Sequence record: MT782071.1
DNA length: 64,000 nucleotides
From: Escherichia phage JN02
Reading direction: 5' to 3' (one strand)
The position numbers and the translations under genes were made by a program. Shown piece by piece: positions 2,529 through 57,458 of this stretch (the stretch's first letter is position 1; every line of letters starts with the position of its first letter). Under the pieces are notes generated by a model that saw only the letters and a list, made by a program, of their open reading frames with translations, ran no database searches and was not told the DNA's origin.

Positions 2529-3629
2529 TTACGCTGTGAAGATTTTATCCCACATCGCAACAACTGCATCTCGATTATACTTCTTCCATACTGCTTCAGC
2601 ACGTTTAACTCGAGCTTCGTACGTGTCAGTGAATTCTAATACAGCTTTTGTGTAAAGCGCAACTACTTCTTTCTTAGGAGTAGAGGAATCAATTTCTACA
2701 CGCACAGTATCTGGGTCGTATTCGAATGTCGCATGAGGATAATCCTTAAAAACTAACTGGATTACAGGGACACCTTTAGAGATGGCTTCAATAGAACTAT
2801 TCTCTACCGTACCTGTGTCAGGACACGTATTAATAAGTGCTTTAGCTGTTTTAAGACGTTCCATGATTTCACTGTGTGGAGCATCAATAATAACAGGATA
2901 TTTAGCTGGTGGTGCCCATTTACTAGGACAGTATCCTACACCATTTTCGCCTAGTGCTTTAATCGCTTCAAGAGCAACATCAGTGCGACGCATTTTAGTG
3001 TCATAACGTTGTGCACTAATAATCAAATCAGTCGCCGGAAGAACTTCAGGTTTTTCAGTCAAACAAATAACCGGATAATCTTCGGCTTCAAACAACGGAT
3101 TTGCTCGCCAATAATCATAATCAATTTTGTCAGTCAGACCTGAAGTCATATAACAATATTTGCGTTCAAATTCACGGAAGGCTTTAGTGGGAGCATAACT
3201 CTTACCACCATTCTTATGAATTTGAATAGTCTGATCCCAAATTTGAACAATGCCACGAGATACCGGTTCAAATGGTGTTGCCATAAAATTCTTATGAACT
3301 TTAGAGAGACCTGCGTCTTTAATTGCCTGAACGGTTAGTTTAGTCGGTTCCATAGTAACAACAAAATCGTATTCATGGATGCCGGCTAGTTCAACAATCT
3401 TACGAGCCATAGTATAACTCATACCTAGACTGAATTTAGTCAGATGTCCAACAGGGTGGTGTGTAACTTTCCAGTCACCAAACATGTCATTATCAAAACC
3501 GATATAATCAATATCAGCACCAATAGAAACTAAATATTTCAACACATTTAAATGTACTGCTTCAAGGCCACCTTGTACACGGTCAGGATTAAATGGGACT
3601 GCGCGAGATGGGATAAACATAACTTTCAT
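2529..3629 (-). CDS. GT-B fold glycosyltransferase (GT4-like), candidate DNA sugar transferase
   Basis: 366 aa; N-terminal MKVMFIPS...GGLE and C-terminal TGTVENSSIEAISKGVPVI resemble GT4 donor-binding motifs; occupies the T4 gene 60/mobA position. Confidence 0.6.
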   Translation of the reverse strand: MKVMFIPSRAVPFNPDRVQGGLEAVHLNVLKYLVSIGADIDYIGFDNDMFGDWKVTHHPVGHLTKFSLGMSYTMARKIVELAGIHEYDFVVTMEPTKLTVQAIKDAGLSKVHKNFMATPFEPVSRGIVQIWDQTIQIHKNGGKSYAPTKAFREFERKYCYMTSGLTDKIDYDYWRANPLFEAEDYPVICLTEKPEVLPATDLIISAQRYDTKMRRTDVALEAIKALGENGVGYCPSKWAPPAKYPVIIDAPHSEIMERLKTAKALINTCPDTGTVENSSIEAISKGVPVIQLVFKDYPHATFEYDPDTVRVEIDSSTPKKEVVALYTKAVLEFTDTYEARVKRAEAVWKKYNRDAVVAMWDKIFTA

Positions 3630-15277: not shown

Positions 15278-15814
15278 TTAGTAACCATTATCCTGACGTT
15301 CAAAGTTGTGTTGGTTTTTCAAGTAGTAAAGTTTAAAGATTTCTTCTGCTGTAAGACCAAGACCCTGGAACATATTCAGAACGAAATGAAGAATATCAAT
15401 CATCTCGAATTTAATTTCAAGCTGGTCTTCAGGAGACAGTTCATCGATACGACGATTTCGATATTCAGCATGTTGTGCTTTCCATGGCTTCCATACAGAG
15501 CTAGCGGCTTTTTCACCATTGCTCATACCACCAAGTGAAGTCAGCAGTTCACGGAATTCATCATCAATATAATCTTTCTGATTACGCAGCCAATCAACAA
15601 CATCGCCGGCAGTGGCCAATTCATCAGGATGTTTGTTATGTTCAGGCTTGTCATTTGCCAGACGAACCTGTAAAGATTTCTGCATATCAAGCATTACCTG
15701 CAGAGGGTCTTTATCTTCGTGAATCAGAGCATTAAAATAAGCTTCTTCTGCTTTATCAACACCAGAAATAAGTTGTGAACATTCGTTAAAGTGTGCCATT
15801 ATTTTTCCTTTCAA
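15278..15814 (-). CDS. 56: dCTP pyrophosphatase (MazG-like)
   Basis: 178 aa at the T4 gene 56 position between soc and 61; call rests on size and synteny. Confidence 0.75.
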   Translation of the reverse strand: MKGKIMAHFNECSQLISGVDKAEEAYFNALIHEDKDPLQVMLDMQKSLQVRLANDKPEHNKHPDELATAGDVVDWLRNQKDYIDDEFRELLTSLGGMSNGEKAASSVWKPWKAQHAEYRNRRIDELSPEDQLEIKFEMIDILHFVLNMFQGLGLTAEEIFKLYYLKNQHNFERQDNGY

Positions 15815-23873: not shown

Positions 23874-24422
23874 TTAACGAGCCCATTTGATAATTTCTGT
23901 AATCAAATTATTACGTTCGCTTGCATTAAATCCTATAACTTTGTTAGCACCATCATGATTAAGTAATTGATATGTTTGGATTTTGTTATGAATTGCAAAC
24001 TCTTCAAAATATGAAATGACTGTATTAAAACCGAATGAAGACAAAGTAATAAGGTCGTCTTCAAAACTTTCAGTCATTTCGTTACGTGTTAAAATAATTG
24101 TGAACACATCATGGGTTTGGCAAAGACGAACATAATCCTGTTCATAAACGTCAAGAACAGAGTCCGCATCTTGTCGAATACGTCCATAAACCCAGTTACT
24201 AATATATCCACGGTCTAACAGATAAATCTTAGTAGGGTCTAAATAATTCAACATCGTTTCGAAACAGCCAACTTCATTTCGAGACTTAACATCGAAACGT
24301 CCATCAACCGTTCGTTTAGGGAAATCAATCTTTACATATCTTTCACTAATTTCCATTATGTCATTAATGAAAGTTGTTTTACCAGCATTATCTGGGCCAT
24401 CTACTAAAATAATTTTAGCCAT
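23874..24422 (-). CDS. P-loop kinase, thymidylate-kinase-like
   Basis: 182 aa; Walker A GPDNAGKTT at N-terminus and LLDRGYIS resembling the TMPK DR(Y) motif; occupies part of the T4 beta-gt locus. Confidence 0.5.
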   Translation of the reverse strand: MAKIILVDGPDNAGKTTFINDIMEISERYVKIDFPKRTVDGRFDVKSRNEVGCFETMLNYLDPTKIYLLDRGYISNWVYGRIRQDADSVLDVYEQDYVRLCQTHDVFTIILTRNEMTESFEDDLITLSSFGFNTVISYFEEFAIHNKIQTYQLLNHDGANKVIGFNASERNNLITEIIKWAR

Positions 24423-24423
24423 T

Positions 24424-25323
24424 TTATTCCTCGATTACGACATCTTCGTATTTAGGTATATTATACGGTGAAGAAATTAAAGCATTAAAGTAGATGAACT
24501 CGCCAAGACCTGGATGGAATACTTCTTCAGGATTTTCGAAATATTGAATCTTCGGCCGTCCTTTAAGAATTTGATAGTACTCAGTTTTAGTTGGTTTAAA
24601 AATTCGAATCAGCGCTTCTTCAGGATACTTATTTCTATCGAAGCTATTATTTGGATCGGTTACATAAAGCGGTTGACCTAATTGAATTGCACATTCAACC
24701 ACTTGTTCAAAACGATAGCACGGGTCACTAATTCGAAATGGATGAAAAATACCATCTAGATGAATAGGAGCCAAATCACCTACAAGACGCTGCATAATGG
24801 AAGGACGTATAACTTTCTGGGTTACGATAATCTTATTACCATCTGCACCTGCGTTAACCAGCACTTCCTTTTGACGTTCATTCAACACAGTAGTTTGAAG
24901 TGAACGATTAACCGACAACATATCAGTTTTTAAGAATTCGTCAATATAAAAACGTGGTTTATTAGGGTCTGCAGTGATATTGAAATTGAATTCTACGTCA
25001 AAAGTGCCGTCATATCCAGTGATATCTGTGATTAGAAAATCACAATCATAATAATCAATTAATGAATCAACCACAAATTCATTTTCAGACCAGAAATATT
25101 TACGAGTGTTATACGCGTTATCTTTATACCATAATGGAACAAACTTAAATTCTGGGAAAAGACGTTCACATTCTTTAATATCAGATGCATTACGTGGATA
25201 TGTAATCACATCACCCGGATTAGCACGGTGCAAATGAAGTTGGAAGTTGCCATCCTTAAGGATAGCATACTCTCCAGTTTCATAAGACCGCATACTCAAG
25301 ATAGGTACGCGGAAAATAGCCAT
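24424..25323 (-). CDS. hypothetical protein at beta-gt locus (candidate DNA-modifying transferase)
   Basis: 299 aa, no motif I recognise; immediately downstream of gene 42 where T4 has beta-glucosyltransferase. Confidence 0.35.
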   Translation of the reverse strand: MAIFRVPILSMRSYETGEYAILKDGNFQLHLHRANPGDVITYPRNASDIKECERLFPEFKFVPLWYKDNAYNTRKYFWSENEFVVDSLIDYYDCDFLITDITGYDGTFDVEFNFNITADPNKPRFYIDEFLKTDMLSVNRSLQTTVLNERQKEVLVNAGADGNKIIVTQKVIRPSIMQRLVGDLAPIHLDGIFHPFRISDPCYRFEQVVECAIQLGQPLYVTDPNNSFDRNKYPEEALIRIFKPTKTEYYQILKGRPKIQYFENPEEVFHPGLGEFIYFNALISSPYNIPKYEDVVIEE

Positions 25324-26039
25324 TAGTCAAGGAATCCTTTAACATAATCAAAATCACGTTCAAACACATGGGCACTTACCATGGTATGAGTATAATCACC
25401 AACTTCTACACCACATTCGTTAGCGATATAATGAAGTAATTTTCCTTGGAGATAAAAATCCAACTGCATAACAACAGCACAGTTCTGAGAACGCATATGA
25501 CAGTGGGTATAAAGCTTACCATCGCGAATATAATAAGTCGCCGAGTCAGTACATGGATATTCAAGCGTTTCGTCCGAATCAAGCAAAGCCTGATCAGAAC
25601 TTTCTAGAATTTGGAACACAACTCTTCGAGAGTTAGGTTTATCTTTAAGTTCTTTTAGAAGAGCTGGTAATTGGGCCGCAATGCGAGGACCATAGAAAGT
25701 GTTGAAGTTCGCCGGCAAAACATCTGATTTTGGTTTAGAAATAAATTTAGCAACGTTAGGATATGCCTTAAAGGCTTCTTCTGCATCAGTTCCGCCAGAA
25801 ATCATAAATTTCCAGAAATCTTCAGCATATTCATAAGAGATGCGGTTAATACGTGGGTCGGTCATTTTGAATGATGATGGAGTGTCAACAACTACTGTCA
25901 TAGACCCAATTTCATTACAACGTCCAATACGAGAATCAGTTACGAATTCCGGGTTTTCTAAAATCTCACGATTGACTGCTTTAAATGCGGATTGAAAATC
26001 TGCGGCTTTAATATATTTCATTGTGTTATGTTTTCCCAT
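25323..26039 (-). CDS. 42: dCMP hydroxymethylase (thymidylate synthase family)
   Basis: 238 aa; YPCTDSATYYIRDGK...MRSQN aligns with the T4 gp42 catalytic-Cys region as recalled. Confidence 0.8.
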   Translation of the reverse strand: MGKHNTMKYIKAADFQSAFKAVNREILENPEFVTDSRIGRCNEIGSMTVVVDTPSSFKMTDPRINRISYEYAEDFWKFMISGGTDAEEAFKAYPNVAKFISKPKSDVLPANFNTFYGPRIAAQLPALLKELKDKPNSRRVVFQILESSDQALLDSDETLEYPCTDSATYYIRDGKLYTHCHMRSQNCAVVMQLDFYLQGKLLHYIANECGVEVGDYTHTMVSAHVFERDFDYVKGFLD

Positions 26040-26080
26040 GTTTACCTCAATACAGTTATTATATACTCAATTCATAAAGC

Positions 26081-26320
26081 TTATTTGAATTTCTTAGCGA
26101 TGTTGATATAACGTAGAGCTTCGGCATCAATACTTCCAAGGACACTATGAAGGAATGCGTCGGCATAGTATTCTAGTTGAACAGGTTCTTTAATCGCTTT
26201 AGCCGCTTTAGTTTCAAACAGGCCCATAAGGGCCTTTTTAAGAATTTGTTCGTTAGTGTTCAGTTTAATAGTCAAAATCTCTTCGTTAAGTTTATAATTA
26301 AAACTTTTTCTAGAAATCAT
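26081..26320 (-). CDS. hypothetical small protein
   Basis: 79 aa; not hydrophobic, so not an Imm homolog. Confidence 0.35.
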   Translation of the reverse strand: MISRKSFNYKLNEEILTIKLNTNEQILKKALMGLFETKAAKAIKEPVQLEYYADAFLHSVLGSIDAEALRYINIAKKFK

Positions 26321-27477
26321 TCCGGGTACCTCAAAGCGTCATCAGAGTTAGTTATATCAATAATAGATATGGAGTTTTCTGCTAACCCGTTTTTAGATAA
26401 TTGACGTTTATAATACCTTTCACAATATGTACACGTTGACCCACAGATTTCATTAGCACAATCGAAATCTGGATGTCTGAACCACCTTTTTTCTAAAAAA
26501 CCATCCAACAAAGAGGTTTCAATATTTACCGTATGTGAAAACTCAGTCTCATTTTCAAGAGTGAAAATAGTCTCTAAAGGCTTCCACAATTCCAACAAAT
26601 TACCTTCAAACTTTTCAGAAGCGTATGCTTCAAGAACTTTCAAAATGTAGTCGGTGCTACCTGTACGTCCTGAAACTTTGAATTGAGTGATACCAATATC
26701 ATTATAAAGTTTCAAATCTTGTGGACGAACAAAACGAGTTCTCAACCAGTTAAATGGGTCTGTATCACGAGCTTTAATACAGTGCTGCATAGGATATCCA
26801 TTTAAGGATTTAGCATCATCAGCTGTAACATCAGTACTATGGAAAATATAGCAAGAGTCACGATAGCTACAATGTGTTGTATACCCTTTACCAGCATTAG
26901 AACAGAACTCATTTACAAGAACTTCAAATATTATATTGTTCTTATTGCAAAACTCTGCTGCACGCTTCAGGAAAGAAACTGAACGGTTCTTATGAATTCC
27001 ACAGCAGACCTTTTTGATATTATACTGGTCATGTAAGTATTTGATTTGAGTTACAGCATCGACATGTAAAATTGTTGAAACTTCAATCTCAATGTCTTTA
27101 TTGACTTCACGAACAATTTCCATAACAACAGGGTTAGCGATAGTAATACGCCATACGCCTATTGACCAAAGATACTGAACATAGTCCTGAATAGCTTTCT
27201 TCTTCCACTCAACTAGTTCTCTTTTTGAACCAGGATTTATCGTGTTGAGTGTATAGTTAAAGCAAATACCTAATTCGTTACAACGTTTAACGTAATCTTC
27301 TAACATCTTTTTGTCAACGTCAGGAAGCCTAAAATCAGGTCTGGCTGCTACAAAAGCCATTTCTCTTGTAGAGCCATATACTTCGTTTATCAAGCTATTA
27401 GGATAAGTTTTATTGAGCTCTACGATTTTATCAAGAAGAGCTAAATCAAAATTCGTTCCGATTTTAAAAGTATTCAT
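26317..27477 (-). CDS. Cys-rich hypothetical protein in sugar cassette
   Basis: 386 aa with clustered Cys (KVCCGIH, EFCSNAG...HCSYRDSC, C-terminal CANEICGSTCTYC); no confident family. Confidence 0.35.
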   Translation of the reverse strand: MNTFKIGTNFDLALLDKIVELNKTYPNSLINEVYGSTREMAFVAARPDFRLPDVDKKMLEDYVKRCNELGICFNYTLNTINPGSKRELVEWKKKAIQDYVQYLWSIGVWRITIANPVVMEIVREVNKDIEIEVSTILHVDAVTQIKYLHDQYNIKKVCCGIHKNRSVSFLKRAAEFCNKNNIIFEVLVNEFCSNAGKGYTTHCSYRDSCYIFHSTDVTADDAKSLNGYPMQHCIKARDTDPFNWLRTRFVRPQDLKLYNDIGITQFKVSGRTGSTDYILKVLEAYASEKFEGNLLELWKPLETIFTLENETEFSHTVNIETSLLDGFLEKRWFRHPDFDCANEICGSTCTYCERYYKRQLSKNGLAENSISIIDITNSDDALRYPE

Positions 27478-27532
27478 TTTTTTGCATCTCGCGTTAATTG
27501 TGCGATGGTTTTTGCAGGTCTTACTTAAATTA

Positions 27533-27934
27533 TTATAGATTCGGTTTATATGATTTAAATGTTTCGAATTCGCCTTTATTCATAAGAGCTTTGAATTCGT
27601 CAGGACGCATAGCTTTGTCGTCGATAATCCAATCATATACTGGTTTATGTGTTAGCAAATTATGGTACTTCAAGCCAATGTTTGCCAAGTTCTGAATAAG
27701 ACTTGGGAGAATGTCAATTGCTATACGACCAGGACCTACTGACTTCATACCGCGAGCAGTGTAAAGCGTTATGGTATGCCCTGCATCATACAGGGCATTA
27801 ATGGCAGATACCATTTCGACGTCTGGTTTGAAGTTCACGTAATCACGATTGTTATTCCACTCTGTTATACAATCATCGACATCAAAACAAAGATTAAGCA
27901 TGTTTTCTACACGGTGCATTAGATTCGTTCCCAT
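27533..27934 (-). CDS. HAD-superfamily phosphatase (small)
   Basis: 133 aa; motif I FDVDDCIT, T/S motif TLYTAR, Lys HKP, motif IV IIDDK; start probably at an internal Met. Confidence 0.6.
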   Translation of the reverse strand: MGTNLMHRVENMLNLCFDVDDCITEWNNNRDYVNFKPDVEMVSAINALYDAGHTITLYTARGMKSVGPGRIAIDILPSLIQNLANIGLKYHNLLTHKPVYDWIIDDKAMRPDEFKALMNKGEFETFKSYKPNL

Positions 27935-29604
27935 TGATGAGTGATATCGCCACCGATTGGACGATAGGAAACACCAGTTTCTTTATCAGTTAGTACCCAT
28001 TTACCAGGATTTTTTGTAATCAGAGTAGCCGTTACAGGTTCTGCTACGTCATAACTAATAGAGCCGTCTTGAAGTACACGGCCCATGTTACGTAATTGCT
28101 TAGTCAGAAGTTCCATACCTTTATAATATGCGGCTACCGCTTTAAGTGGATTATTCTTGAAATAACCACCTAATGCAATCCAGATAATTGCTACAGCCAA
28201 ATGATGATACTCGTTAAATGAACTCATCTTTCCATATTTGTAAATTAATGGATTGATGTTAATAGTCACATTACAAGTTGTTTCGTCAATAGTAAACTGT
28301 CCCCAGGTCGGATTAGCGTTGAATTCATCATAACCTGAAACAGCATAAAGCACTTTAGCTTCATCGTACAATTTTGGCCCGTAAATCTTGGTTTCACCAA
28401 AATATCCACGAGGGTCGATAAACTTGACTTCGCCGTTATCAGTAATCATAGTATTACTGAAGTTCGGGTCACCATGAATAACAGAGTACTGTCCCTGAGA
28501 ACGGTTATGATAACGAATAAGGTGTTCTAAAGCTTGTTTCAACATTGGCTTCAGACGCCCAATCTTAGTGTAGTTCACATGTGTGATTTTACCAAATGAA
28601 TCAATCAATGGTTGAATACTTTCACAACGATCAATAACTTTCGTATAGAATTCTTTAGTGAAATCACGACGAACAGTTTCAGGACTTACAAAATAAGTGT
28701 CTGTGCTGAATTTCAGTGCATCTAAAATTGCATCAACAATTTGCGGACGAGCAAGACTCGATTTGGATTTAATATATTCAAATGCCGGCTTACCTTTAAT
28801 GCGTTCCATTTCAAAGTTATTTTCATTAACAGAAACTAACTGAGGAACTGAATCTGATTTCACTTTAAGATACCATGAAATCTCATCTTTCTGAAGAGCT
28901 CGGCCCTGTTCGGTTAATGCGAATTTAGTTACAGTTTCTTCACCAATTTCAACTGCATTAAAACTACGATTAAGTTCACGAACTTCATGAGCTTTTTCAA
29001 GTTTAGGCATATCACCTAAATCAATTAGATTCATAAGCTCTGATTTATTGAATGCGCCGCTGTAAAGGAATTCTACGAAATCACGTCCTTTGCAGTATTC
29101 ATGAATTTCCTCATCAGTAGAACCCATATAGAATTCCCAGTCTTTGAACTGATAAATTCCTACAACATTACCACCTGTTGAACCTACGTTAGTGATATTT
29201 TCACCGTCGAAATTATATCGACATTCGTCACCCTTAACATAGATTGCGTTAACATTCCAAGACCATGAACCAAAATCAGGAATAATATCACACCAGTTAA
29301 CAATTACATTATGGCCGTCTAAATCTTTATGTAATTTAGCAAGAGCATAAGCAGAACCATACGCTTCATCAACTGTACGAATAGTCACATTGAACCCTTC
29401 TTGCTCACAATAAGCTCGAACAGTTTCAGCAAATTTTGAATGAACTACTACAATAATTTCATCTGCGCCAAGGTCAGAATAAATTGTATACAAATTGCTC
29501 AGAATAGTGTCTTGTTTATAGTTAACAAGCACCTTAGGAATATGATGCGTTATTGGATACAAACGAGTTGCCAGTCCAGCACCAAGAATAACAGCTTTTT
29601 TCAT
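27919..29604 (-). CDS. bifunctional sugar-1-phosphate nucleotidyltransferase / anomeric sugar kinase
   Basis: 561 aa; N-terminal AVILGAGLATRL (G-x-G-T-R nucleotidyltransferase motif); C-terminal VIHGDPNFSNTMI...FIDP (APH/choline-kinase-type catalytic loop). Confidence 0.65.
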   Translation of the reverse strand: MKKAVILGAGLATRLYPITHHIPKVLVNYKQDTILSNLYTIYSDLGADEIIVVVHSKFAETVRAYCEQEGFNVTIRTVDEAYGSAYALAKLHKDLDGHNVIVNWCDIIPDFGSWSWNVNAIYVKGDECRYNFDGENITNVGSTGGNVVGIYQFKDWEFYMGSTDEEIHEYCKGRDFVEFLYSGAFNKSELMNLIDLGDMPKLEKAHEVRELNRSFNAVEIGEETVTKFALTEQGRALQKDEISWYLKVKSDSVPQLVSVNENNFEMERIKGKPAFEYIKSKSSLARPQIVDAILDALKFSTDTYFVSPETVRRDFTKEFYTKVIDRCESIQPLIDSFGKITHVNYTKIGRLKPMLKQALEHLIRYHNRSQGQYSVIHGDPNFSNTMITDNGEVKFIDPRGYFGETKIYGPKLYDEAKVLYAVSGYDEFNANPTWGQFTIDETTCNVTININPLIYKYGKMSSFNEYHHLAVAIIWIALGGYFKNNPLKAVAAYYKGMELLTKQLRNMGRVLQDGSISYDVAEPVTATLITKNPGKWVLTDKETGVSYRPIGGDITHQWERI

Positions 29605-29645
29605 GTTGTGGTCCTCATTGGTAAGTAGGAGTATTGTACACTATT

Positions 29646-29789
29646 CTAGTTAAAGCATTCATACTTTGCTTGTAGTCCAATCATAATCCATCCGATTATG
29701 AGAGTCGGAATCATTACTGGAGCCGTTAAGCTCCAGTAGATAGTCATGACAAGCATCAATAGTAAAAGTCCTATTGTTATTGCTTTCAT
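29646..29789 (-). CDS. small hydrophobic peptide (47 aa), below the ORF-track cutoff
   Basis: MKAITIGLLLLMLVMTIYWSLTAPVMIPTLIIGWIMIGLQ...; ATG overlaps the upstream stop (TAATG). Confidence 0.35.
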   Translation of the reverse strand: MKAITIGLLLLMLVMTIYWSLTAPVMIPTLIIGWIMIGLQAKYECFN

Positions 29790-30421
29790 TATTCGCCTCG
29801 TAACATGGCACCTAGTGCACCACCAGGGTGGAACTTAAGGAAGTCATTAGAGGTAAATCCACGTTCAGACGAAAGGTTGATAGCGAACGTATCGATAAGC
29901 GCTAACAACAATGTAGTAGACATTGTCGGAGCTAAAGAGTTCTCGTCAACTTCTACCGCGATGCCTGTACAGAAAGAGTAATCAAAAAGGGCTTCATTTT
30001 CTTGCGGAATGTCAGGGTTACAATGTAACAGAATCTGTTTAACCTGAGGACGAATCATACGAAGATGTTTAGCAACACCTATCATTTCTTCGGTCTTACC
30101 AGAACGACTAATATGAATCAACACATCATTAGGCGCAATGAATCCTGCATCGCCGTGAGAATAATGCCCGGTGTTCAAGTACATACTCGGGATACCGAGT
30201 GAAGCAAATGTCTCAGAAGCTTTAGTTGCAATATTAGCATTCTTACCAACACCTGTAATAATTACTCGGCTTTCATAATTGCTAAGTCCTGGGCGTCGAA
30301 GAGTTTCTAGAATAGCATTATAACGAGCAGGGTTTTGACTAATTACTTTGGCCATAGCGGCCAAAGAAGAAGCTTGTTTTACGATTGCGTCAATAGCGAT
30401 AGTAATAGGAGTAGTTTTCAT
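29789..30421 (-). CDS. SIS-domain sugar-phosphate isomerase, arabinose-5-phosphate isomerase-like
   Basis: 210 aa; VIITGVGKNANIATKAS, HGDAGFI, ISRSGKTEE and APTMSTT...FLKFHPGGALG match KdsD/GutQ/KpsF SIS signatures. Confidence 0.7.
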   Translation of the reverse strand: MKTTPITIAIDAIVKQASSLAAMAKVISQNPARYNAILETLRRPGLSNYESRVIITGVGKNANIATKASETFASLGIPSMYLNTGHYSHGDAGFIAPNDVLIHISRSGKTEEMIGVAKHLRMIRPQVKQILLHCNPDIPQENEALFDYSFCTGIAVEVDENSLAPTMSTTLLLALIDTFAINLSSERGFTSNDFLKFHPGGALGAMLRGE

Positions 30422-30461: not shown

Positions 30462-33173
30462 TCAAAAATCGAACATATCGAACAGAGATGCTTTCTTCTC
30501 GTAATCGAGTTTCGCTGCTGATGTGAATCCTTCAAGTGGTTTAATAAATGTCTTCTCAAGGAGAACAGTGTAGTCCATCCAATGAAGTACGTCGTCTTTA
30601 ATTAAATCTGTGATTTCAGTACCAGAAGGCCATGCGATACATTTATCACCGAATGGGTTTCCTTCACGTAAAGGCAGAACATATACTTTTTCACCTTCTA
30701 CAACTTGTGGAGCATCAATATTACCTTTGATAGCCCGGTTATACGTCAGAATTCCACGAATATGGAACGGACATTTAGGACCAGGGAATCCACCTACATC
30801 ATATTTATCAATGTTATTCGCAGAAGATACTGACGCGATGCTAATATAATTCAATTGACGGAATTCTTTTTCAAACTCTTTAAAATATTCTTGTAATGAT
30901 TCTTCACCTTCTTGAAGCATACGACGAATACATTCTTTAAGAGCTTTCTGTACTGCTTTAGGAGTCGAAGATTTCTGCGTTTCGAGACCCATGATTTTAA
31001 GCTTAGGTTCAGCGTAACGAGTACCTTCCATATCCCACACGTTTAATGCATAACGTTTCTTACCAGTCCAGAATCCACCAATACCTTTAGAACCGAGCGG
31101 AGGACCAGCGATAGCTTCTCGGTCCATGAACATTAAGTGTTGTTTATTGTTCATGTATTCACACATTTCACGGAAACCTCTATCAATAGCTGGTTCCATA
31201 CGTTCACGTGCAAACTTATCTAAGAAGTCTACCCAATGGTTGGTATCACGGAATTTAGATTCACCAACCTTATCGATAATTTTATCAGCAGATACGTAAA
31301 TAGAGTCTGTATCACCATAAAGAACGAAAGCTTCTCCTTCTGTACCACAAACTTCATTCAGATATTCATTAACTTTACGTTCAATCCACTGTAAAGCCAT
31401 TTGACCAAATGTTGTGATTGCAGTAGCATTACGCAAATCATAATAACGGAACCATACGTTACCAAGTGCACCATAAAGCGAGTTGATAAGCAATTTACGG
31501 TTAATTTGTGCAGTCATACCTGCAACTTCAGTACGTTGAGCTCTGAACAACATTTCATTAAGAGATTTAGCAGACAACTTTTTAATCTTTTCTTTAATCT
31601 CGTCAGTGAAGTCGAAACGATAATCAACATCTAATGGTTCGTCAACAGAAAGATTAGGATTATGCAATGCCTCTTTAATTATTTCACCGTTACGTTGAGC
31701 TGCAAGCATATAACCTTTATGTTCTTTACGTTGATTAAAGACCTTAGTGATTTCAGTTGGAACTACACCGTCACGGTCTTTATAATACATCATGCCGTTA
31801 GGAGAGCAACTGTACACATCTGAAGGACGTTCAGCAACAGCGTTAATATAATCATGCAGTGGAGCTACTTTAAACGTTCCTGCTATTGTTTCTGGGCTAA
31901 TATTCACTTGGCGAATAATACTTGGATACAGAGATGTGAGGTCGAAGCTCATCACATATTTGTATCGATTTGGGATAGGTTCCTTAACAAAAGCACCAGG
32001 ATAAGGTTGAACCGGGTGAGAACGACCTTGTGGAATCACCTTGTTTTGCTCTTTAAGGCTATTAAAAATAATAGCATCCCATGTTTTAATTGGGCTAAAC
32101 ACAGATTGAATCTGTATCTTAGCATAATAACCCATGTCCAAGCTCAAGTTAATGAACTGACGTTTACCATCAATTTGTAATACACGATACACGTCGATAA
32201 TGTTATAAGAAATATATCGTTGGTGATTGCTTTCACGAAGCTTAGAAATAGGGCCGTCATATTTCAGTTTACCGACGTTCAATTCAAATTCTGAAATGTA
32301 ATCCAGAGAATACGACGGTTGATTAGTAAAAGAGAATTTTTTGTAAAGGTCAATGTAATCAAGAACAGAGATACCGAACAATGTAATGATTTCACGAGAA
32401 CCATACATGTTTTCGATAACTTTAACACGAGTTTTACGATGTGGTGATAAACGTTTCGCAGTAGATTCGCCAAAAATATTCTTGATTCGGTTATACACAT
32501 ATGGAATATCAAATGACTCAACGTTCCATCCGGTTAAAATGACAGGAGTTTTCTGTTGCCAGAAGTTGAGATATTCCATCAACAATTCTTTTTCGTTATC
32601 GAACGGCATATAAATGATTTTATCGATAATTTCGGATGGAACTTCATCACCACCTTGTTCTTGAAGCTTAGCCGCAATTTCGATAGACCATTCTTCCACA
32701 TTACCGTATGGAGAATTCAAAAGGTCAAATACGTAGAACCTGTCGTCAATTGAGTCATAATGGGTGATAGCATCAATTGGATGTTTTGCTTGTGACGGCT
32801 CAGGGAACCCATCCGGAGATGTTACTTCGATGTCGAAGTTAGCCACACGAATTTTTGTATGGTCGTATTTGATTTCATAGTTATAAGTGTCAGACAAATA
32901 CGCCAATTTGAAATCGTCCATGCCAAGTGCTTCAAGTCCGATATCTTCCATGCGTTTAATCCATTGGGAGGCATCACGCATATTGGCGAACAACTTACGA
33001 GTACACGGCTTACCGTAGATATCGAAATATTTCGTAGCCTGACTTTCTGGACAATGAGCAAACAGTGATGGTTTATATTCTACTTCACGAGTACGTTCAC
33101 GGCCATTAGAATCGATGTAACGTTCAAAAATTGAATCACCAATCTGTTCAACCGTTAAGTAAAATTCTTTCAT
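30462..33173 (-). CDS. 43: DNA polymerase (family B) with 3'-5' exonuclease
   Basis: 903 aa; matches the RB69 gp43 sequence as recalled (MKEFYLTVEQIGDSIFERYID...), with Asp at both exonuclease positions; YGDTDS motif. Confidence 0.97.
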   Translation of the reverse strand: MKEFYLTVEQIGDSIFERYIDSNGRERTREVEYKPSLFAHCPESQATKYFDIYGKPCTRKLFANMRDASQWIKRMEDIGLEALGMDDFKLAYLSDTYNYEIKYDHTKIRVANFDIEVTSPDGFPEPSQAKHPIDAITHYDSIDDRFYVFDLLNSPYGNVEEWSIEIAAKLQEQGGDEVPSEIIDKIIYMPFDNEKELLMEYLNFWQQKTPVILTGWNVESFDIPYVYNRIKNIFGESTAKRLSPHRKTRVKVIENMYGSREIITLFGISVLDYIDLYKKFSFTNQPSYSLDYISEFELNVGKLKYDGPISKLRESNHQRYISYNIIDVYRVLQIDGKRQFINLSLDMGYYAKIQIQSVFSPIKTWDAIIFNSLKEQNKVIPQGRSHPVQPYPGAFVKEPIPNRYKYVMSFDLTSLYPSIIRQVNISPETIAGTFKVAPLHDYINAVAERPSDVYSCSPNGMMYYKDRDGVVPTEITKVFNQRKEHKGYMLAAQRNGEIIKEALHNPNLSVDEPLDVDYRFDFTDEIKEKIKKLSAKSLNEMLFRAQRTEVAGMTAQINRKLLINSLYGALGNVWFRYYDLRNATAITTFGQMALQWIERKVNEYLNEVCGTEGEAFVLYGDTDSIYVSADKIIDKVGESKFRDTNHWVDFLDKFARERMEPAIDRGFREMCEYMNNKQHLMFMDREAIAGPPLGSKGIGGFWTGKKRYALNVWDMEGTRYAEPKLKIMGLETQKSSTPKAVQKALKECIRRMLQEGEESLQEYFKEFEKEFRQLNYISIASVSSANNIDKYDVGGFPGPKCPFHIRGILTYNRAIKGNIDAPQVVEGEKVYVLPLREGNPFGDKCIAWPSGTEITDLIKDDVLHWMDYTVLLEKTFIKPLEGFTSAAKLDYEKKASLFDMFDF

Positions 33174-36587: not shown

Positions 36588-36629
36588 TTAATTTGATGTG
36601 GTCATTATAACCACATCATGTTAAAGCGT

Positions 36630-38569: not shown

Positions 38570-38798
38570 TACACGCTTCAGCCATTTTAAGAATAGAGCC
38601 AGGAGTATCGTTGTCCATTATATTAAAGCTAAATTCAATGGCCCAGTCGGTGCAGACATGAACTGCTTTAACTTCATTGCCTTCAACGCGTAATGGCTCA
38701 ATCCAATACTTGATAGTGTTCTCGAATCCATCATCATCTTTAACGTCCATTTCAACTTCAAGCCTGAGTCCAGCATTGTTAAATTCATCTAAAGTCAT
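38541..38798 (-). CDS. hypothetical acidic protein
   Basis: 85-aa ORF. Confidence 0.35.
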   Translation of the reverse strand: MTLDEFNNAGLRLEVEMDVKDDDGFENTIKYWIEPLRVEGNEVKAVHVCTDWAIEFSFNIMDNDTPGSILKMAEACIEDAYNDED

Positions 38799-39814
38799 TG
38801 TGTTGCCTCAATATAAAGTTCGTTGGAATATTTGACCAGCGCTTCTCTGTCTTCGTCTGAGATATCTGGAATCGCATCAATATATTCTTTAATGATATCT
38901 TGAAGTGATTTAATCTCGATTTCCTGGTCGTCATCAGATTCAACACTGTTATCAACTTTAGAAACCATACGAAGAGAGTGAACTACTTTTTCAAGTTCAG
39001 ATTCAAACTTAGTCAACTCTGAATCAATTTCTGATACTATAACACGTACGGCTAGATTAGTATAATCAGAATAATTGATTTTGCCTTTAAACGGATAAGT
39101 GATTCGTCGATGCCATGTTGTTTCATTAGGAATAAATTCCATACGTTCAACATCAGTGTCAAATACCCAGAATCCTCGAGGGTCGTTCTCATCACCTGCA
39201 GTAAGGGTCCATGGTGTCCCAATATATTTGACGTTAGCAGCTTCAGAGATTGTGTGGAAGTGGCCGGACCAGACTTGTTTATAGGTCTTTAAGAAATCAG
39301 GTTCAAGCCCATGAGACTTCATTCCTTTATAGAAATAAAAGCCATTCAGTTCCCAGTGCCCAACACAATACGCGGCGGAAGAAGTCTTGATGTGCTCTAA
39401 GATTTCACCTGTATTTTCTTCACACATCCATGGAACGATATCAATCAGACATCCGTCAAAATCTACAGTAGTTGGATGCTCGTAAATAGTAAAGTTTTCA
39501 AATTGAGTTAACAATTCAGAAACAGTGTTAGGTGTTATTGTATTCTTAAACGCCATGTCATGGTTTCCTATCGTGACATGAACGTGAATGCCTGCTTTAG
39601 AAATCATATCAACGATTTCACGATTGAATTCCATTGTACGATGTGTTATTGCTTTACGGACGTCAAACCAATCACCGTACTGAATCCAAGTTTTAATCCC
39701 ATGTTTCTTAGAGTATTCAATTGCTTGACGAATACCATCACGTTGAATATCTTGAACCCATGGGTCGTCTTGTTTGACTCCGATGTGGAAGTCGCCTAAG
39801 TGCAAAATTTTCAT
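38795..39814 (-). CDS. 47: recombination nuclease subunit (Mre11/SbcD-like phosphoesterase)
   Basis: 339 aa; MKILHLGDFHIG and GNHD metallophosphatase motifs. Confidence 0.9.
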   Translation of the reverse strand: MKILHLGDFHIGVKQDDPWVQDIQRDGIRQAIEYSKKHGIKTWIQYGDWFDVRKAITHRTMEFNREIVDMISKAGIHVHVTIGNHDMAFKNTITPNTVSELLTQFENFTIYEHPTTVDFDGCLIDIVPWMCEENTGEILEHIKTSSAAYCVGHWELNGFYFYKGMKSHGLEPDFLKTYKQVWSGHFHTISEAANVKYIGTPWTLTAGDENDPRGFWVFDTDVERMEFIPNETTWHRRITYPFKGKINYSDYTNLAVRVIVSEIDSELTKFESELEKVVHSLRMVSKVDNSVESDDDQEIEIKSLQDIIKEYIDAIPDISDEDREALVKYSNELYIEATQ

Positions 39815-39828
39815 ATTATTTCCTCATT

Positions 39829-39861
39829 AGTTAATTCATTCTATCATCCGTTTATAAAGCA
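39829..39861 (-). promoter_or_regulatory. MotA-box middle promoter candidate for gene 47
   Basis: minus strand TGCTTTA, 11 nt, TAGAAT; same CGGATGATAGAAT core as the element upstream of gene 39. Confidence 0.45.
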
Positions 39862-39888
39862 AAAAAAAAAGGAACTCCGAAGAGTTCC
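39861..39888 (-). terminator. rho-independent terminator
   Basis: minus strand GGAACTC-TTCG-GAGTTCC followed by a T10 run. Confidence 0.65.
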
Positions 39889-40100
39889 TATCCACATAGT
39901 ACGCCGTACAGAGGCTCATTTGAACTTTTAAATCGAATGGGCTTGTATGTAATAGTTCCTTCGGCTTTAGCTTTATCATAAGACTCTTTAAAACGTCTCA
40001 TTCTTTCTGCTTTGCCTTTACGGATTTTATCGAAATTTTCAGAAGTCGGGATGTTCGTCATGCATAAGCACCTCTCAGAAAATACCTAAATCGATTTCTC

Positions 40101-40322
40101 TCATCGTTTCCACCATTTCTTAACTTGAAATGAATCAACCCACACGAGTTGTTTTGGGTCTGCCTTTACAATAGGCGGACAAATTTCTGTAATAGAACCG
40201 TCATGATATTCCTTTTCAGAAATTTTAACACAAAGAGGACCTCCCAATTTAAGGGTGAACCCTGCGTTCAGATTAAGACGTTTAAACTTTGTTTGAACTA
40301 GCGCCATTAATGATGTCCTCAA
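40101..40322 (-). CDS. hypothetical small protein (alpha-gt locus)
   Basis: 73-aa ORF. Confidence 0.3.
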   Translation of the reverse strand: MRTSLMALVQTKFKRLNLNAGFTLKLGGPLCVKISEKEYHDGSITEICPPIVKADPKQLVWVDSFQVKKWWKR

Positions 40323-40605
40323 TAGCCTGACGAGTAGTAATCCACTGGATTTTAATTAACTTGTCATTATATGGTTGTCGTAGAATATCCCGAGATTTCT
40401 TAATAGCATATTCGTAAGCTTCGAAGTTATTTTGAATTGCTGCTTCTTGAGCATGAGCATAAAGACGGTTTAGTTCAAAACGATTCTTTTTAAGAATCTT
40501 TTCGGATTTTTTACGTGCTTCAGCTTCATTTTTCTTTTGGATTTCTTGTAGCATTTTAGCTACTGCATCTTCTGCTTCTTTATTTTCAATAATCTCGGTA
40601 GTCAT
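40282..40605 (-). CDS. hypothetical protein (alpha-gt locus)
   Basis: 107-aa ORF, coiled-coil-like. Confidence 0.35.
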   Translation of the reverse strand: MTTEIIENKEAEDAVAKMLQEIQKKNEAEARKKSEKILKKNRFELNRLYAHAQEAAIQNNFEAYEYAIKKSRDILRQPYNDKLIKIQWITTRQAIEDIINGASSNKV

Positions 40606-40606
40606 A

Positions 40607-40900
40607 TTATCTCATTAAATTAAAATAAAAACGTCCATCCTCTTCAATACAGAACTCGTACTCAACTGGAGTCCCGTTTATCGAAAATGACACGTCATGT
40701 GGGTTCAAAGGGTCGATGTCAAAATTAATTTTAAATTCACGACCCAACAGTTTTACCAAATAAGGGATTGCTTCGTCAAAAGGTTCTTCTAAGTAGTTAG
40801 AGATGTCAATTGTCATCCTCATATAAAAAATCCAAACTAGGTGAATCGCTAACAACTTCCTTCTTTTCAGCCCCAGGAGCTTTATAAGCGGATTCTTCAT
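40607..40900 (-). CDS. hypothetical small protein
   Basis: 97-aa ORF; N-terminus overlaps gene 55 so the start is probably internal (about 40820). Confidence 0.3.
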
Positions 40901-41363
40901 AATGCGTCATTTTATCGTAGATGTCTTGAATAAACGTTTCATCTACCAACGCTACCATATCATCGTCATGACTGTCGTAGACATTATGAACGAAGTAACT
41001 ATATTTCTTTGCAACTTCCTTACGTTCTTTTTTGATACGTTGGACAAAAGCATTAAAACAAGCTCGAGTTATGTATGCATGTGGGTTATTGTACTTAGTT
41101 TCGTCGAAATTATGAAGTCCCTTAATAGAGGCTTCAATCCCATCTGCAATCATCTCCTGCTTCCAAGACTGGGTATATCCTGAAAAGTTGAAACGTTTGG
41201 ACAGGCCTTCGGCGATAAGCATAATTGCTAAACCGATGGTATCATTCTGACGAATAATTTTGTTTGGGTCTTTATTATTTAAGAGCTCCTTTTTCCACTC
41301 GATTATAGCGGCGAGAAGCTCTTTATTATTCACATAGTTATTTTTAGGTTTTTGTTCAGTCAT
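40806..41363 (-). CDS. 55: late transcription sigma factor
   Basis: 185 aa; [16 protein letters not shown]...[38 protein letters not shown] matches T4 gp55 as recalled. Confidence 0.92.
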
Positions 41364-43279: not shown

Positions 43280-43628
43280 TGCGTTTGATAAAATTCACTT
43301 CACTTACTGAAAGGTCTTTAAGACCGATTGATTCTAAACGCTGAGTAAGCGTCAACATTGGGATATAGTCCCAATGTGTTTTAGACGTTTGGTAAGTACG
43401 GACGCCATTAGCAATTTCAACGTTCAAATCGGAAATGGTAATGAATATCAGACGTTCGTTGTTTACATTAAGAGTTAGAACAACTTTCTTTGAATCTAAA
43501 CTAATCATTTTGTTTTCCTCTATAGTAGATGGTTTAATCTTAACACATCTATTGAGGATGTAAACTGTTTTATGAAAATATTTTCGATTTGAGAGGGGCA
43601 CAAGGAGATAGTGAAGTGAAGATTCCAA
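43260..43628 (-). CDS. hypothetical protein
   Basis: 122-aa ORF. Confidence 0.35.
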   Translation of the reverse strand: MESSLHYLLVPLSNRKYFHKTVYILNRCVKIKPSTIEENKMISLDSKKVVLTLNVNNERLIFITISDLNVEIANGVRTYQTSKTHWDYIPMLTLTQRLESIGLKDLSVSEVNFIKRIVSINL

Positions 43629-54411: not shown

Positions 54412-54508
54412 TTCGTTTCGATAGGTCTATAATAACATATCCTAAAAGCATGTACACTACTTTTTAAAAATATTTTAACCCCCTAAAGGGACCCGAAGGT
54501 CCCCATAT

Positions 54509-57442: not shown

Positions 57443-57458
57443 GGTTCAAGATAGTAAA

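What the first reader, a model, noticed from the sequence alone, without database searches (positions are those of the whole stretch)
39815..40805. Alpha-glucosyltransferase absent between genes 47 and 55
T4 encodes alpha-gt immediately downstream of gene 47. Here that interval holds only a terminator and three small unknown ORFs (73, 107, 97 aa). With beta-gt also missing, the phage very likely does not glucosylate its DNA in the T4 manner.
Basis: partly seen in the sequence, partly recalled or inferred. Interest (0 to 1): 0.4.

Follow-up and report, generated by a model that had tools for sequence, protein, structure and literature searches.

The report
Empty alpha-glucosyltransferase slot, RB69-like phage
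This is an RB69-like (Mosigvirus) T-even phage that lacks the T4 glucosyltransferase genes because it decorates its DNA with arabinose on 5-hydroxycytosine instead, which is already published for this group.

Summary
No alpha-glucosyltransferase (a-gt) lies between gene 47 (38795-39814, -) and gene 55 (40806-41363, -). No a-gt, b-gt or T2-type ba-gt homolog is detectable in the 64-kb window or in the complete genome of the closest relative, phage GADS24 (98-99% nt identity).

The interval holds four conserved small genes, not three unknown ORFs: homologs of T4 a-gt.2, a-gt.3, a-gt.4 and a-gt.5 (57, 68, 107 and 71 aa). It also holds an intrinsic terminator and a MotA-box middle-promoter-like site in front of gene 47. 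Compared with T4, exactly 47.1, a-gt and mobB are missing.

The window is a Mosigvirus, collinear with RB69. Thomas et al. 2018 reported that RB69 has no a-gt, b-gt or ba-gt. Lee et al. 2026 showed that RB69 DNA carries mono- and di-arabosylated 5-hydroxycytosine, not glucosyl-hmC.

The replacement pathway is in the window, with proteins 90-99% identical to their RB69 counterparts:
- 23874-30421 (-): a thymidylate-synthase-type 5hodCMP synthase, a GT-B transferase, and UDP-arabinose synthesis genes
- 2529-3629 (-): a second transferase

Low interest; already known.

The parts
38795..39814 (-). Gene 47 (SbcD/Mre11-like recombination nuclease subunit), the lower boundary of the interval
   Evidence: 339 aa; 76% identical to T4 gp47 and 100% to RB69 gp47. 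Pfam Metallophos.
39838..39860 (-). T4-type middle-promoter-like site: MotA box GCTTTA, 11 nt, then TAGAAT, about 24 nt upstream of the gene 47 ATG
   Evidence: Pattern match. The window has 22 such sites against 3.0 expected from shuffles. The same motif stands at both T4 junctions that flank a-gt and mobB. Function is inferred, not shown.
39860..39889 (-). Intrinsic-terminator-like hairpin: 8-bp stem and UUCG loop at 39870-39889, then T10 at 39860-39869. It starts inside the a-gt.2 stop codon.
   Evidence: Terminator scan. RNA fold -13.2 kcal/mol, z = -2.7. Conserved in RB69 and at the T4 a-gt.2 junction. Annotated as a terminator in several Mosigvirus records.
   Evidence: 76% identical to T4 a-gt.2 and 95% to RB69 a-gt.2. 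Pfam PF17588, E 4.5e-28.
   Evidence: 69% identical to T4 a-gt.3 and 98.5% to RB69 a-gt.3. Annotated as 68 aa in relatives. No Pfam family.
40282..40605 (-). a-gt.4 homolog (107 aa, DUF2654)
   Evidence: 58% identical to T4 a-gt.4 and 99% to RB69 a-gt.4. Pfam PF10849, E 1.6e-27.
40607..40822 (-). a-gt.5 homolog (71 aa, DUF5491). It overlaps the 3' end of gene 55 by 17 nt, as in T4.
   Evidence: 47% identical to T4 a-gt.5 from its first residue. Pfam PF17595, E 5.8e-13. Annotated as 69-71 aa in relatives.
40806..41363 (-). Gene 55 (late sigma factor), the upper boundary of the interval
   Evidence: 91% identical to T4 gp55 and 99.5% to RB69 gp55.
25323..26039 (-). Thymidylate-synthase-family enzyme in the gene 42 position; predicted 5-hydroxy-dCMP synthase (RB69 gp48 equivalent)
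   Evidence: 24% identical to T4 gp42, with the catalytic Cys and the dCMP-specifying Asp (T4 D179) aligned. 98% identical to RB69 gp48 and to PDB 9IQC/9IR2/9IQU. Pfam Thymidylat_synt. Enzyme activity was shown for RB69 gp48 in PMC13326640.
24424..25323 (-). 299-aa GT-B-fold glycosyltransferase directly downstream of the TS homolog, in the position b-gt holds in T4. It is the candidate first arabinosyltransferase (RB69 gp46:47).
   Evidence: One intact ORF, 97-99% identical to RB69 ORFs 46 and 47. AlphaFold2 pLDDT 95.4. Foldseek best hits are GT-B glycosyltransferases and UDP-GlcNAc 2-epimerases, E down to 3e-7. No sequence or profile match to T4 a-gt or b-gt.
23874..24422 (-). P-loop nucleotide kinase (RB69 gp45 equivalent)
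   Evidence: 98% identical to RB69 gp45, which is annotated thymidylate kinase. No Pfam hit.
26317..27477 (-). Peptidase-U32-family protein (RB69 gp50 equivalent); its role in the pathway is unresolved
   Evidence: Pfam PF01136, E 7e-11. 99% identical to RB69 gp50.
27533..27934 (-). Small HAD-like sugar phosphatase (RB69 gp51 equivalent)
   Evidence: 99% identical to RB69 gp51. The function rests on the homologous HY126 AfhF, as summarised in PMC13326640.
27919..29604 (-). 561-aa bifunctional nucleotidyltransferase plus sugar kinase (RB69 gp52:53 equivalent); makes UDP-arabinose
   Evidence: Pfam NTP_transferase at the N terminus and weak kinase-family hits at residues 308-409. A single ORF, 99% identical to RB69 ORFs 53 and 52.
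29789..30421 (-). SIS-domain arabinose-5-phosphate isomerase (RB69 gp55 equivalent)
   Evidence: Pfam SIS, E 2.6e-10. 98.6% identical to RB69p055.
2529..3629 (-). 366-aa GT4-like glycosyltransferase (RB69 ORF003c/gp3 equivalent); candidate second arabinosyltransferase
   Evidence: 98.6% identical to RB69 gp3. Near-identical to PDB 9IQZ/9IR0, 'Glycosyltransferase subfamily 4-like...', E 1.8e-249. No blastp similarity to a-gt, b-gt or ba-gt.
15278..15799 (-). Gene 56 dCTPase/dUTPase, which supplies dCMP and excludes dCTP
   Evidence: 97.7% identical to RB69 gp56. A MotA-box site lies upstream at 15833-15856.

Best explanation
The window comes from a Mosigvirus, an RB69-like T-even phage. The conserved backbone 55 - a-gt.5 - a-gt.4 - a-gt.3 - a-gt.2 - [slot] - 47 - 46 has an empty slot. 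In T4 that slot holds mobB, a-gt and 47.1. In the Klebsiella phage Mineola it holds a-gt alone.

Here a-gt.2 is followed directly by an intrinsic terminator and a MotA-type middle promoter that restarts transcription into genes 47 and 46.

The phage needs no glucosyltransferase because its cytosine modification chemistry is different:
1. gp56 supplies dCMP.
2. A flavin-dependent thymidylate-synthase homolog (25323-26039) hydroxylates dCMP to 5-hydroxy-dCMP.
3. Kinases raise this to the triphosphate, and it is incorporated in place of dC.
4. A phage-encoded route converts ribulose-5-P to UDP-arabinose: arabinose-5-P isomerase 29789-30421, bifunctional kinase/uridylyltransferase 27919-29604, HAD phosphatase 27533-27934.
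5. Two GT-B transferases (24424-25323 and 2529-3629) add one or two arabinoses to the 5-hydroxyl.

What is shown here: gene content, synteny, sequence identities, the fold of the 299-aa protein, and the absence of a-gt, b-gt and ba-gt. The chemistry is inferred by transfer from RB69 and HY126 at 97-99% protein identity (gp49, an 79-aa protein of unknown function, is 90%). The terminator and promoter function is also inferred.
For: Identity of the phage:
- Megablast places the interval and a 25-kb stretch in Mosigvirus genomes at 97-99% identity.
- The taxonomy lines of the matching records read Mosigvirus.
- Gene order is collinear with RB69.

The empty slot:
- T4 order: 47, 47.1, a-gt, mobB, a-gt.2-a-gt.5, 55.
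- Window order: 47, a-gt.2-a-gt.5, 55.
- Mineola order: 55, a-gt.5-a-gt.2, a-gt, terminator, 47.
- No a-gt, b-gt or ba-gt in the window or in the complete GADS24 genome.

The replacement pathway:
- All RB69 arabinosylation-cluster proteins are present at 97-99% identity, except the 79-aa gp49 at 90%.
- Pfam finds a TS domain, U32, NTP_transferase with a kinase region, and SIS.
- PDB 9IQC and 9IQZ are near-identical to the TS homolog and the gp3 homolog.
- The 299-aa protein models as a GT-B fold.
- The catalytic Cys and the dCMP-specifying Asp are conserved against T4 gp42.

Regulatory signals: terminator and MotA-box site.

Literature:
- PMC6024577: RB69 has no a-gt, b-gt or ba-gt, and its DNA contains arabinose.
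- PMC13326640: RB69 DNA carries mono- and di-arabinosyl-5-hydroxycytosine, gp48 is a 5hodCMP synthase, and the cluster spans gp45-55 plus gp3.
- bioRxiv 10.64898/2025.12.19.695335: the E. coli phage Bas46 has 5-arabinose-arabinose-hydroxy-cytosine.
Against: - Only 64 kb of roughly 168 kb of this phage is visible. The absence of a-gt and b-gt from the rest rests on a 98-99% identical relative, not on this genome.
- No chemistry was measured for this isolate.
- Which transferase adds the first arabinose has not been shown biochemically, even for RB69. Lee et al. saw no activity of single transferases on 5hoC DNA.
- The role of the U32 protein is unknown.
- Promoter and terminator are consensus matches only.
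Confidence: 0.93

Rival explanations
1. The glucosyltransferase genes have moved to another part of the genome, outside the 64-kb window, and the phage still glucosylates hmC.
For: About 105 kb of this phage is not in the window. T-even genomes are mosaics with movable cassettes, and a-gt is adjacent to the homing endonuclease mobB in T4.
Against: - The complete genome of GADS24 (98-99% identical) has no a-gt, b-gt or ba-gt by tblastn, phmmer or HMM.
- There is no canonical gene 42 to make hmC. The only relative is the 24%-identical 5hodCMP synthase.
- The a-gt tblastn hits in the phage collection fall into bands at 90% identity or more (Tequatrovirus-type) and about 66% (Klebsiella phages). 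No Mosigvirus appears among the 40 rows shown.
- Thomas et al. 2018 found none in RB69.
Confidence: 0.02
2. The missing a-gt is a recent deletion or an assembly artefact in this isolate, and the DNA is left as non-glycosylated hmC, as in T4 a-gt- b-gt- mutants.
For: The junction is clean. a-gt.2 is followed at once by a terminator and promoter module that also occurs on both sides of the T4 a-gt/mobB cassette, a configuration that could support deletion by recombination.
Against: - The same arrangement occurs in at least 145 independent phage records, including RB69, so it is a lineage trait.
- An intact alternative glycosylation pathway is present.
- No hmC synthase is present.
Confidence: 0.02
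3. One or more of the small a-gt.2-a-gt.5 proteins is itself a new DNA-modifying or accessory factor that substitutes for a-gt.
For: All four have unknown function (DUF5486, DUF2654, DUF5491, and no family for a-gt.3) and are named after a-gt.
Against: - They are 57-107 aa, too small for a nucleotide-sugar transferase.
- They are conserved next to a-gt in T4 and Mineola and without it here, so their presence does not depend on a-gt or on the type of sugar.
- The names are positional only.
Confidence: 0.02

Closest known systems
Escherichia phage RB69 and other Mosigvirus phages (HY126, Bas46, APCEc01, GADS24): arabinosylated 5-hydroxycytosine DNA
   Same: - Same gene order from rIIA onward.
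- Same empty slot: 47, a-gt.2-a-gt.5, 55.
- All modification genes are present at 97-99% protein identity, gp49 at 90%.
- The TS homolog and the gp3 homolog are near-identical to solved structures 9IQC and 9IQZ.
   Different: - The nucleotide sequence is 97-99% identical to the nearest records but identical to none, so this is another isolate.
- The two RB69 reference genes that are split (46/47 and 52/53) are single ORFs here.
Phage T4 (Tequatrovirus): glucosyl-hmC made by gp42, a-gt and b-gt
   Same: - Shared replication and recombination backbone: uvsX, 43, 45, 46, 47, 55, 56.
- a-gt.2-a-gt.5 are conserved at 47-76% identity.
- The overall logic is the same: a TS-family enzyme makes a C5-oxygenated dCMP, dCTP is excluded by gp56, and sugars are added by GT-B transferases.
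- A transferase gene lies immediately downstream of the TS-family gene.
   Different: - 47.1, a-gt, mobB, segA and b-gt are absent.
- The TS homolog is only 24% identical to gp42 and makes 5-hydroxy- rather than 5-hydroxymethyl-dCMP (PMC13326640).
- The sugar is arabinose from a phage-encoded UDP-arabinose pathway, not host UDP-glucose.
- imm and imm.1 lie elsewhere, at 18839-19517.
Klebsiella phage Mineola (Jiaodavirus): the a-gt slot filled without a homing endonuclease
   Same: Identical backbone: 55, a-gt.5, a-gt.4, a-gt.3, a-gt.2, slot, terminator, 47, 46.
   Different: The slot holds an a-gt that is 66% identical to the T4 enzyme. In the window the slot is empty.

Membership tests
T4 DNA alpha-glucosyltransferase (AGT) | Detectable sequence homology to T4 a-gt (400 aa) | tested here: not met
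   - tblastn against the window: best E 2.6.
- tblastn against the full GADS24 genome: no hit at E<=1.
- phmmer and a T4+Mineola HMM against all ORFs: below 8 bits.
- Pfam scan of both transferase candidates at E<=1 returned no family at all, so no AGT family match.
T4 DNA alpha-glucosyltransferase (AGT) | A gene located between a-gt.2 and gene 47 | tested here: not met
   Only 73 nt separate the a-gt.2 stop codon from the gene 47 start codon, and they are filled by a hairpin, T10 and a promoter-like motif.
T4 DNA beta-glucosyltransferase / T2-T6 beta-alpha-glucosyltransferase | Detectable sequence homology to T4 b-gt or T2-type ba-gt | tested here: not met
   - tblastn of b-gt: best E 1.8 in the window, and no hit at E<=1 in GADS24.
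- ba-gt from RB27: best E 3.3 in the window and 0.83 in GADS24.
- phmmer gave noise only.
T4 DNA beta-glucosyltransferase / T2-T6 beta-alpha-glucosyltransferase | A GT-B transferase gene immediately downstream of the TS-family gene (the gene 42 position) | tested here: met
   The 299-aa ORF 24424-25323 abuts the TS homolog 25323-26039 and models as a GT-B fold. The position and fold match, but there is no sequence or profile similarity to b-gt. It is therefore an analog or a very remote relative, not a family member.
T4 gp42 dCMP hydroxymethylase | Close homology to gp42, with the catalytic Cys148 and the dCMP-specifying Asp179 | tested here: inconclusive
   The Cys and Asp are conserved, but identity is only 24%. 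The protein is 98% identical to RB69 gp48 and PDB 9IQC. That enzyme was shown to make 5hodCMP rather than 5hmdCMP (PMC13326640). It belongs to the same superfamily but has a different product.
Mosigvirus/RB69 arabosyl-5-hydroxycytosine system | 5hodCMP synthase (RB69 gp48 type) | tested here: met
   98.3% identical over 238 aa. PDB 9IQC, E 6e-161.
Mosigvirus/RB69 arabosyl-5-hydroxycytosine system | UDP-arabinose synthesis genes: arabinose-5-P isomerase, bifunctional kinase/nucleotidyltransferase, HAD phosphatase | tested here: met
   98.6-99.4% identical to RB69 gp55, gp52/53 and gp51. Pfam SIS and NTP_transferase, plus weak kinase-family hits.
Mosigvirus/RB69 arabosyl-5-hydroxycytosine system | Two GT-B arabinosyltransferase candidates (gp46:47 and gp3) | tested here: met
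   97-99% identical to the RB69 proteins. GT-B fold by model and Foldseek for the 299-aa protein. PDB 9IQZ matches the gp3 homolog. Sugar specificity was not tested.
Mosigvirus/RB69 arabosyl-5-hydroxycytosine system | Virion DNA in which dC is replaced by mono- or di-arabinosyl-5hodC | not testable with these tools
   This needs LC-MS or NMR of nucleosides. It has been shown for RB69 (PMC13326640) and stated for Bas46.
T4-type MotA-dependent middle promoter | MotA box (a/t)(a/t)(a/t)TGCTTtA, then 11-13 nt, then a TAnnnT -10 element | tested here: met
   TTTTGCTTTA, 11 nt, TAGAAT at 39838-39860 (-). The pattern is enriched: 22 sites against 3.0 expected. The consensus is quoted from general knowledge of T4 transcription.
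T4-type MotA-dependent middle promoter | MotA activator encoded by the phage, and transcription start mapped | not testable with these tools
   motA is not in the window. GADS24 annotates a MotA-like activator at 100623-101255. No transcript data are available.

The most novel reading that the evidence does not exclude
The a-gt slot may be a cassette site whose joints are a reusable module: a UUCG hairpin, a T-run and a MotA-box middle promoter.

T4 carries this module on both sides of the mobB and a-gt block. This phage, and RB69, carry it once at the same place. Gain, loss or exchange of DNA-glycosylation genes among T-even phages could therefore proceed by recombination between such modules, possibly helped by the adjacent homing endonuclease.

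A corollary follows. a-gt.2-a-gt.5 are conserved whether the DNA carries glucosyl-hmC or arabosyl-5hoC, so despite their names they have nothing to do with glycosylation.
Probability: 0.25. Interest if true: 0.3.

Novelty: already known. Interest (0 to 1): 0.1.

Why it matters
The sugar and the base used to modify phage DNA decide which host nucleases and CRISPR systems can attack it, and which enzymes can be used to handle the DNA in the laboratory. Recognising this window as a Mosigvirus with the arabinosyl-5-hydroxycytosine pathway predicts resistance to most restriction enzymes. It also predicts insensitivity to defences that depend on glucosyl-hmC. None of this is new: the absence of a-gt and b-gt from RB69-type phages was published in 2018 and the replacement chemistry in 2026. 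The value here is correct annotation. The interval holds four conserved T4-like genes plus transcription signals, and the modification genes lie elsewhere in the same window.

Tried and rejected
- **Sequence searches for the glucosyltransferases.** T4 a-gt, b-gt, 47.1, mobB, segA and RB27 ba-gt were run against the window and against the full GADS24 genome by tblastn, phmmer and a small HMM. Only noise came back, apart from an unrelated segA-like homing endonuclease in GADS24 at 17380-17853.\n- **Pfam scan of the two transferase candidates at E<=1.** No family was found.\n- **Profile of 52 homologs of the 299-aa protein against all PDB sequences.** The only hit was a spurious E 0.3 match to a sulfhydrogenase. 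The fold had to be obtained by structure prediction and Foldseek instead.\n- **Homolog search for the gp3-like protein.** Only 6 clusters were found, too few to be worth a profile. The match to PDB 9IQZ made a profile unnecessary.\n- **Coding or RNA features on the + strand of the interval.** Only ORFs of 43 and 50 aa are present. There are no Rfam matches and no tRNAs.\n- **Small a-gt.N proteins replacing a-gt.** Considered and rejected. They co-occur with a-gt in T4 and Mineola.\n- **Direction of the event (loss in Mosigvirus or gain in Tequatrovirus and Jiaodavirus).** Not resolved. It needs a phylogeny across Tevenvirinae.
Full report
**What is at the coordinates**

All genes in this part of the window are on the minus strand. 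The interval 39815-40805 lies exactly between the start codon of gene 47 and the stop codon of gene 55.
- Gene 47: 38795-39814, 339 aa, 76% identical to T4 gp47.
- Gene 55: 40806-41363, 185 aa, 91% identical to T4 gp55.

In T4 the order on this strand is 55, a-gt.5, a-gt.4, a-gt.3, a-gt.2, mobB, a-gt, 47.1, 47, 46. In the window it is 55, a-gt.5, a-gt.4, a-gt.3, a-gt.2, 47, 46. The T4 genes 47.1, a-gt and mobB are missing, and nothing else is.

There are in fact four genes, and all have T4 homologs.

| Gene | Coordinates (-) | Length | Identity to T4 | Pfam |
|---|---|---|---|---|
| a-gt.2 | 39888-40061 | 57 aa | 76% | DUF5486 |
| a-gt.3 | 40101-40307 | 68 aa | 69% | none |
| a-gt.4 | 40282-40605 | 107 aa | 58% | DUF2654 |
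| a-gt.5 | 40607-40822 | 71 aa | 47% | DUF5491 |

The same four genes are annotated in Mosigvirus records and in RB69. The 73-aa and 97-aa figures are the longest possible ORFs for a-gt.3 and a-gt.5. The homology-supported starts give 68 and 71 aa. The 71-aa start gives the same 17-nt overlap with gene 55 as in T4.

**The 73-nt gap between a-gt.2 and gene 47**

The minus strand reads TAG GAACTC TTCG GAGTTCC T10 GCTTTA TAAACGGATGA TAGAAT ... ATG.
- The hairpin plus T-run is a terminator-like site. It folds at -13.2 kcal/mol, z = -2.7 against shuffles.
- The following GCTTTA, 11 nt, TAGAAT fits the T4 middle-promoter consensus of MotA box plus -10. That consensus is general knowledge of T4 transcription.
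- The pattern occurs 22 times in the window against 3.0 expected. Sites lie in front of gene 56, the thymidylate-synthase homolog and the 561-aa sugar-activation gene.

T4 has the same hairpin and GCTTTA promoter module twice. One copy follows a-gt.2, before mobB. The other follows a-gt, before 47.1 and 47. The window and RB69 have it once.

In the Klebsiella phage Mineola (Jiaodavirus) the backbone is the same. There the slot holds a-gt alone, followed by an annotated terminator.

The locus is therefore a conserved backbone with a slot that is either filled or empty. Whether the slot was emptied in Mosigvirus or filled in the other genera was not resolved.

**Is a-gt or b-gt anywhere else?**

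- tblastn of T4 a-gt and b-gt against the whole window gave nothing better than E 1.8.
- The T2-type beta-alpha transferase, taken from RB27, gave nothing either.
- The window matches the complete genome of Escherichia phage GADS24 along its whole length at 98.0-99.2% nt identity. I fetched all 168,896 bases of that genome. The same queries gave no a-gt or b-gt hit at E<=1, and the best ba-gt hit was E 0.83.
- phmmer, and a small a-gt HMM built from T4 and Mineola, were run with filters off against all 992 ORFs of at least 60 aa from both sequences. Only scores below 8 bits came back.
- In the phage collection, a-gt is found in 657 records. These fall into a band at 90% identity or more (T4-type phages of Escherichia, Shigella and Yersinia), a band at about 66% (Klebsiella phages), and a few weaker hits.
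- The a-gt-less arrangement of the window is shared by at least 145 records.

**What the phage is, and what replaces glucosylation**

The best DNA matches are all Mosigvirus. The window is collinear with RB69 from rIIA onward.

Between uvsX (22602-23774) and DNA polymerase (30462-33173), T4 has segA, b-gt, 42, imm and imm.1. The window instead has this cluster:

| Coordinates (-) | Product |
|---|---|
| 23874-24422 | P-loop kinase |
| 24424-25323 | 299-aa protein |
| 25323-26039 | thymidylate-synthase-family protein |
| 26081-26320 | 79-aa protein |
| 26317-27477 | U32-family protein |
| 27533-27934 | small phosphatase-like protein |
| 27919-29604 | 561-aa nucleotidyltransferase plus kinase |
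| 29789-30421 | SIS-domain isomerase |

Every protein is 97-99% identical to its RB69 counterpart among gp45-gp55, except the 79-aa gp49 equivalent at 90%. The RB69 ORF003c/gp3 homolog lies at 2529-3629, at 98.6% identity.

The thymidylate-synthase homolog:
- It is only 24% identical to T4 dCMP hydroxymethylase.
- It keeps the catalytic cysteine and the aspartate that specifies dCMP, T4 D179.
- It is 98% identical to the solved structures 9IQC, 9IR2 and 9IQU.

The gp3 homolog is near-identical to 9IQZ and 9IR0, a GT4-like glycosyltransferase.

The 299-aa protein:
- It has no Pfam, PDB-sequence or PDB-profile match.
- An AlphaFold2 model built on 52 homologs is confident, with pLDDT 95.4 and pTM 0.89.
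- Foldseek places the model among GT-B glycosyltransferases and UDP-GlcNAc 2-epimerases, with E down to 3e-7. The hits include MshA (3c4q) and sucrose-phosphate synthase (6kih). These are the same hits Lee et al. report for RB69 gp46:47.
- T4 a-gt and b-gt are not among the top 50 matches.

A GT-B transferase gene therefore sits immediately downstream of the TS-family gene, as b-gt does in T4. It is not a detectable b-gt homolog.

**Published knowledge**

- Thomas et al. 2018 (PMC6024577) reported that BlastP from T4 a-gt, T4 b-gt and T2 ba-gt finds no homolog in RB69. They found arabinose in RB69 DNA and proposed ORF003c as a GT-B arabinosyltransferase.
- Lee et al. 2026 (PMC13326640) revised the structure of the modification. 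RB69 DNA carries mono- and di-arabinosylated 5-hydroxycytosine. RB69 gp48 makes 5-hydroxy-dCMP from dCMP using O2 and a flavin. The region gp45-gp55 plus gp3 encodes the pathway. The RB69 reference splits of genes 46/47 and 52/53 are sequencing errors. In the window both are single ORFs, which agrees.
- The same paper cites work on phage HY126 for the enzymology of UDP-arabinose synthesis and for the crystal structure of the hydroxylase. HY126 is 97.6% identical to the window over 25 kb.
- A 2025 preprint states that the E. coli phage Bas46 has 5-arabinose-arabinose-hydroxy-cytosine.

**Mechanism, with the status of each step**

Shown here: the slot is empty, no a-gt, b-gt or ba-gt is detectable, the full RB69-type gene set is present and intact, and the 299-aa protein has a GT-B fold.

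Transferred from experiments on near-identical proteins:
1. gp56 supplies dCMP.
2. The TS homolog hydroxylates C5.
3. Kinases give 5hodCTP, which the polymerase incorporates.
4. The isomerase, the bifunctional kinase/uridylyltransferase and the phosphatase make UDP-arabinose from ribulose-5-phosphate.

Inferred:
- The 299-aa enzyme adds the first arabinose and the gp3 homolog adds the second.
- Transcripts from the gene 55 region stop at the hairpin after a-gt.2, and a MotA-dependent promoter restarts transcription into genes 47 and 46.

**Verdict**

Both are already in the literature for this genus. The only mildly original point is the repeated hairpin and promoter module at the edges of the T4 a-gt/mobB block and at the single junction here. 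This hints at cassette exchange at that site. It also implies that the a-gt.2-a-gt.5 genes are independent of the glycosylation chemistry. Interest is low.

Noticed in passing
window 24424-25323 (-) and 27919-29604 (-): The RB69 reference genome splits each of these genes into two ORFs (46/47 and 52/53). In this window each is one uninterrupted ORF, of 299 aa and 561 aa. This agrees with the statement of Lee et al. 2026 that the RB69 splits are sequencing errors.
   Followed up: yes
window 26317-27477 (-): A peptidase-U32-family protein (Pfam E 7e-11) sits inside the arabinosylation cluster. Its role is unresolved in the literature; Lee et al. list it only as a possible 'sugar or heterocycle reductase'. 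From general knowledge, some U32-family proteins are involved in forming 5-hydroxy-pyrimidines in RNA, so a link to 5-hydroxycytosine may be worth testing.
   Followed up: no
window 15833-15856, 26058-26080, 29633-29656, 36604-36627, 39838-39860 (all -): MotA-box plus -10 motifs (GCTTTA, 11-13 nt, TAnnnT) occur 22 times in the window against 3.0 expected. Several lie just upstream of gene 56, the 5hodCMP synthase gene, the UDP-arabinose gene and gene 47. This suggests the modification genes are middle-transcribed.
   Followed up: partly
window 18839-19517 (-): imm and imm.1 lie between sp and 61.4/dmd here, as in RB69. In T4 they lie between genes 42 and 43. The T4 position is taken by the arabinose-pathway genes.
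   Followed up: partly
window 29649-29756 (-): A 36-aa ORF equivalent to RB69 gp54 (97% identical). The RB69 record annotates gp54 as 'similar to T4 42-imm intercistronic region'. It may be a remnant of a T4-like 42-imm arrangement next to the arabinose-5-phosphate isomerase gene.
   Followed up: no
window 43505-43508, 54415-54438 and 57193-57534, against GADS24 (L007/L008): There are three small indel differences from the closest relative. GADS24 has about 176 bp and about 255 bp extra at the first two sites. At the third site the window has about 340 bp where GADS24 has about 70 bp. The content of these segments was not examined.
   Followed up: no
L005 (GADS24) 17380-17853: A homing endonuclease related to T4 segA (37% identity, E 4e-18) lies between the head-completion and DNA-end-protector genes of GADS24, outside the part of the genome that matches the window. 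There is no segA or mobB relative in the window itself.
   Followed up: no
whole window: No tRNA genes (ARAGORN) and no Rfam family at gathering threshold were found anywhere in the 64 kb.
   Followed up: yes
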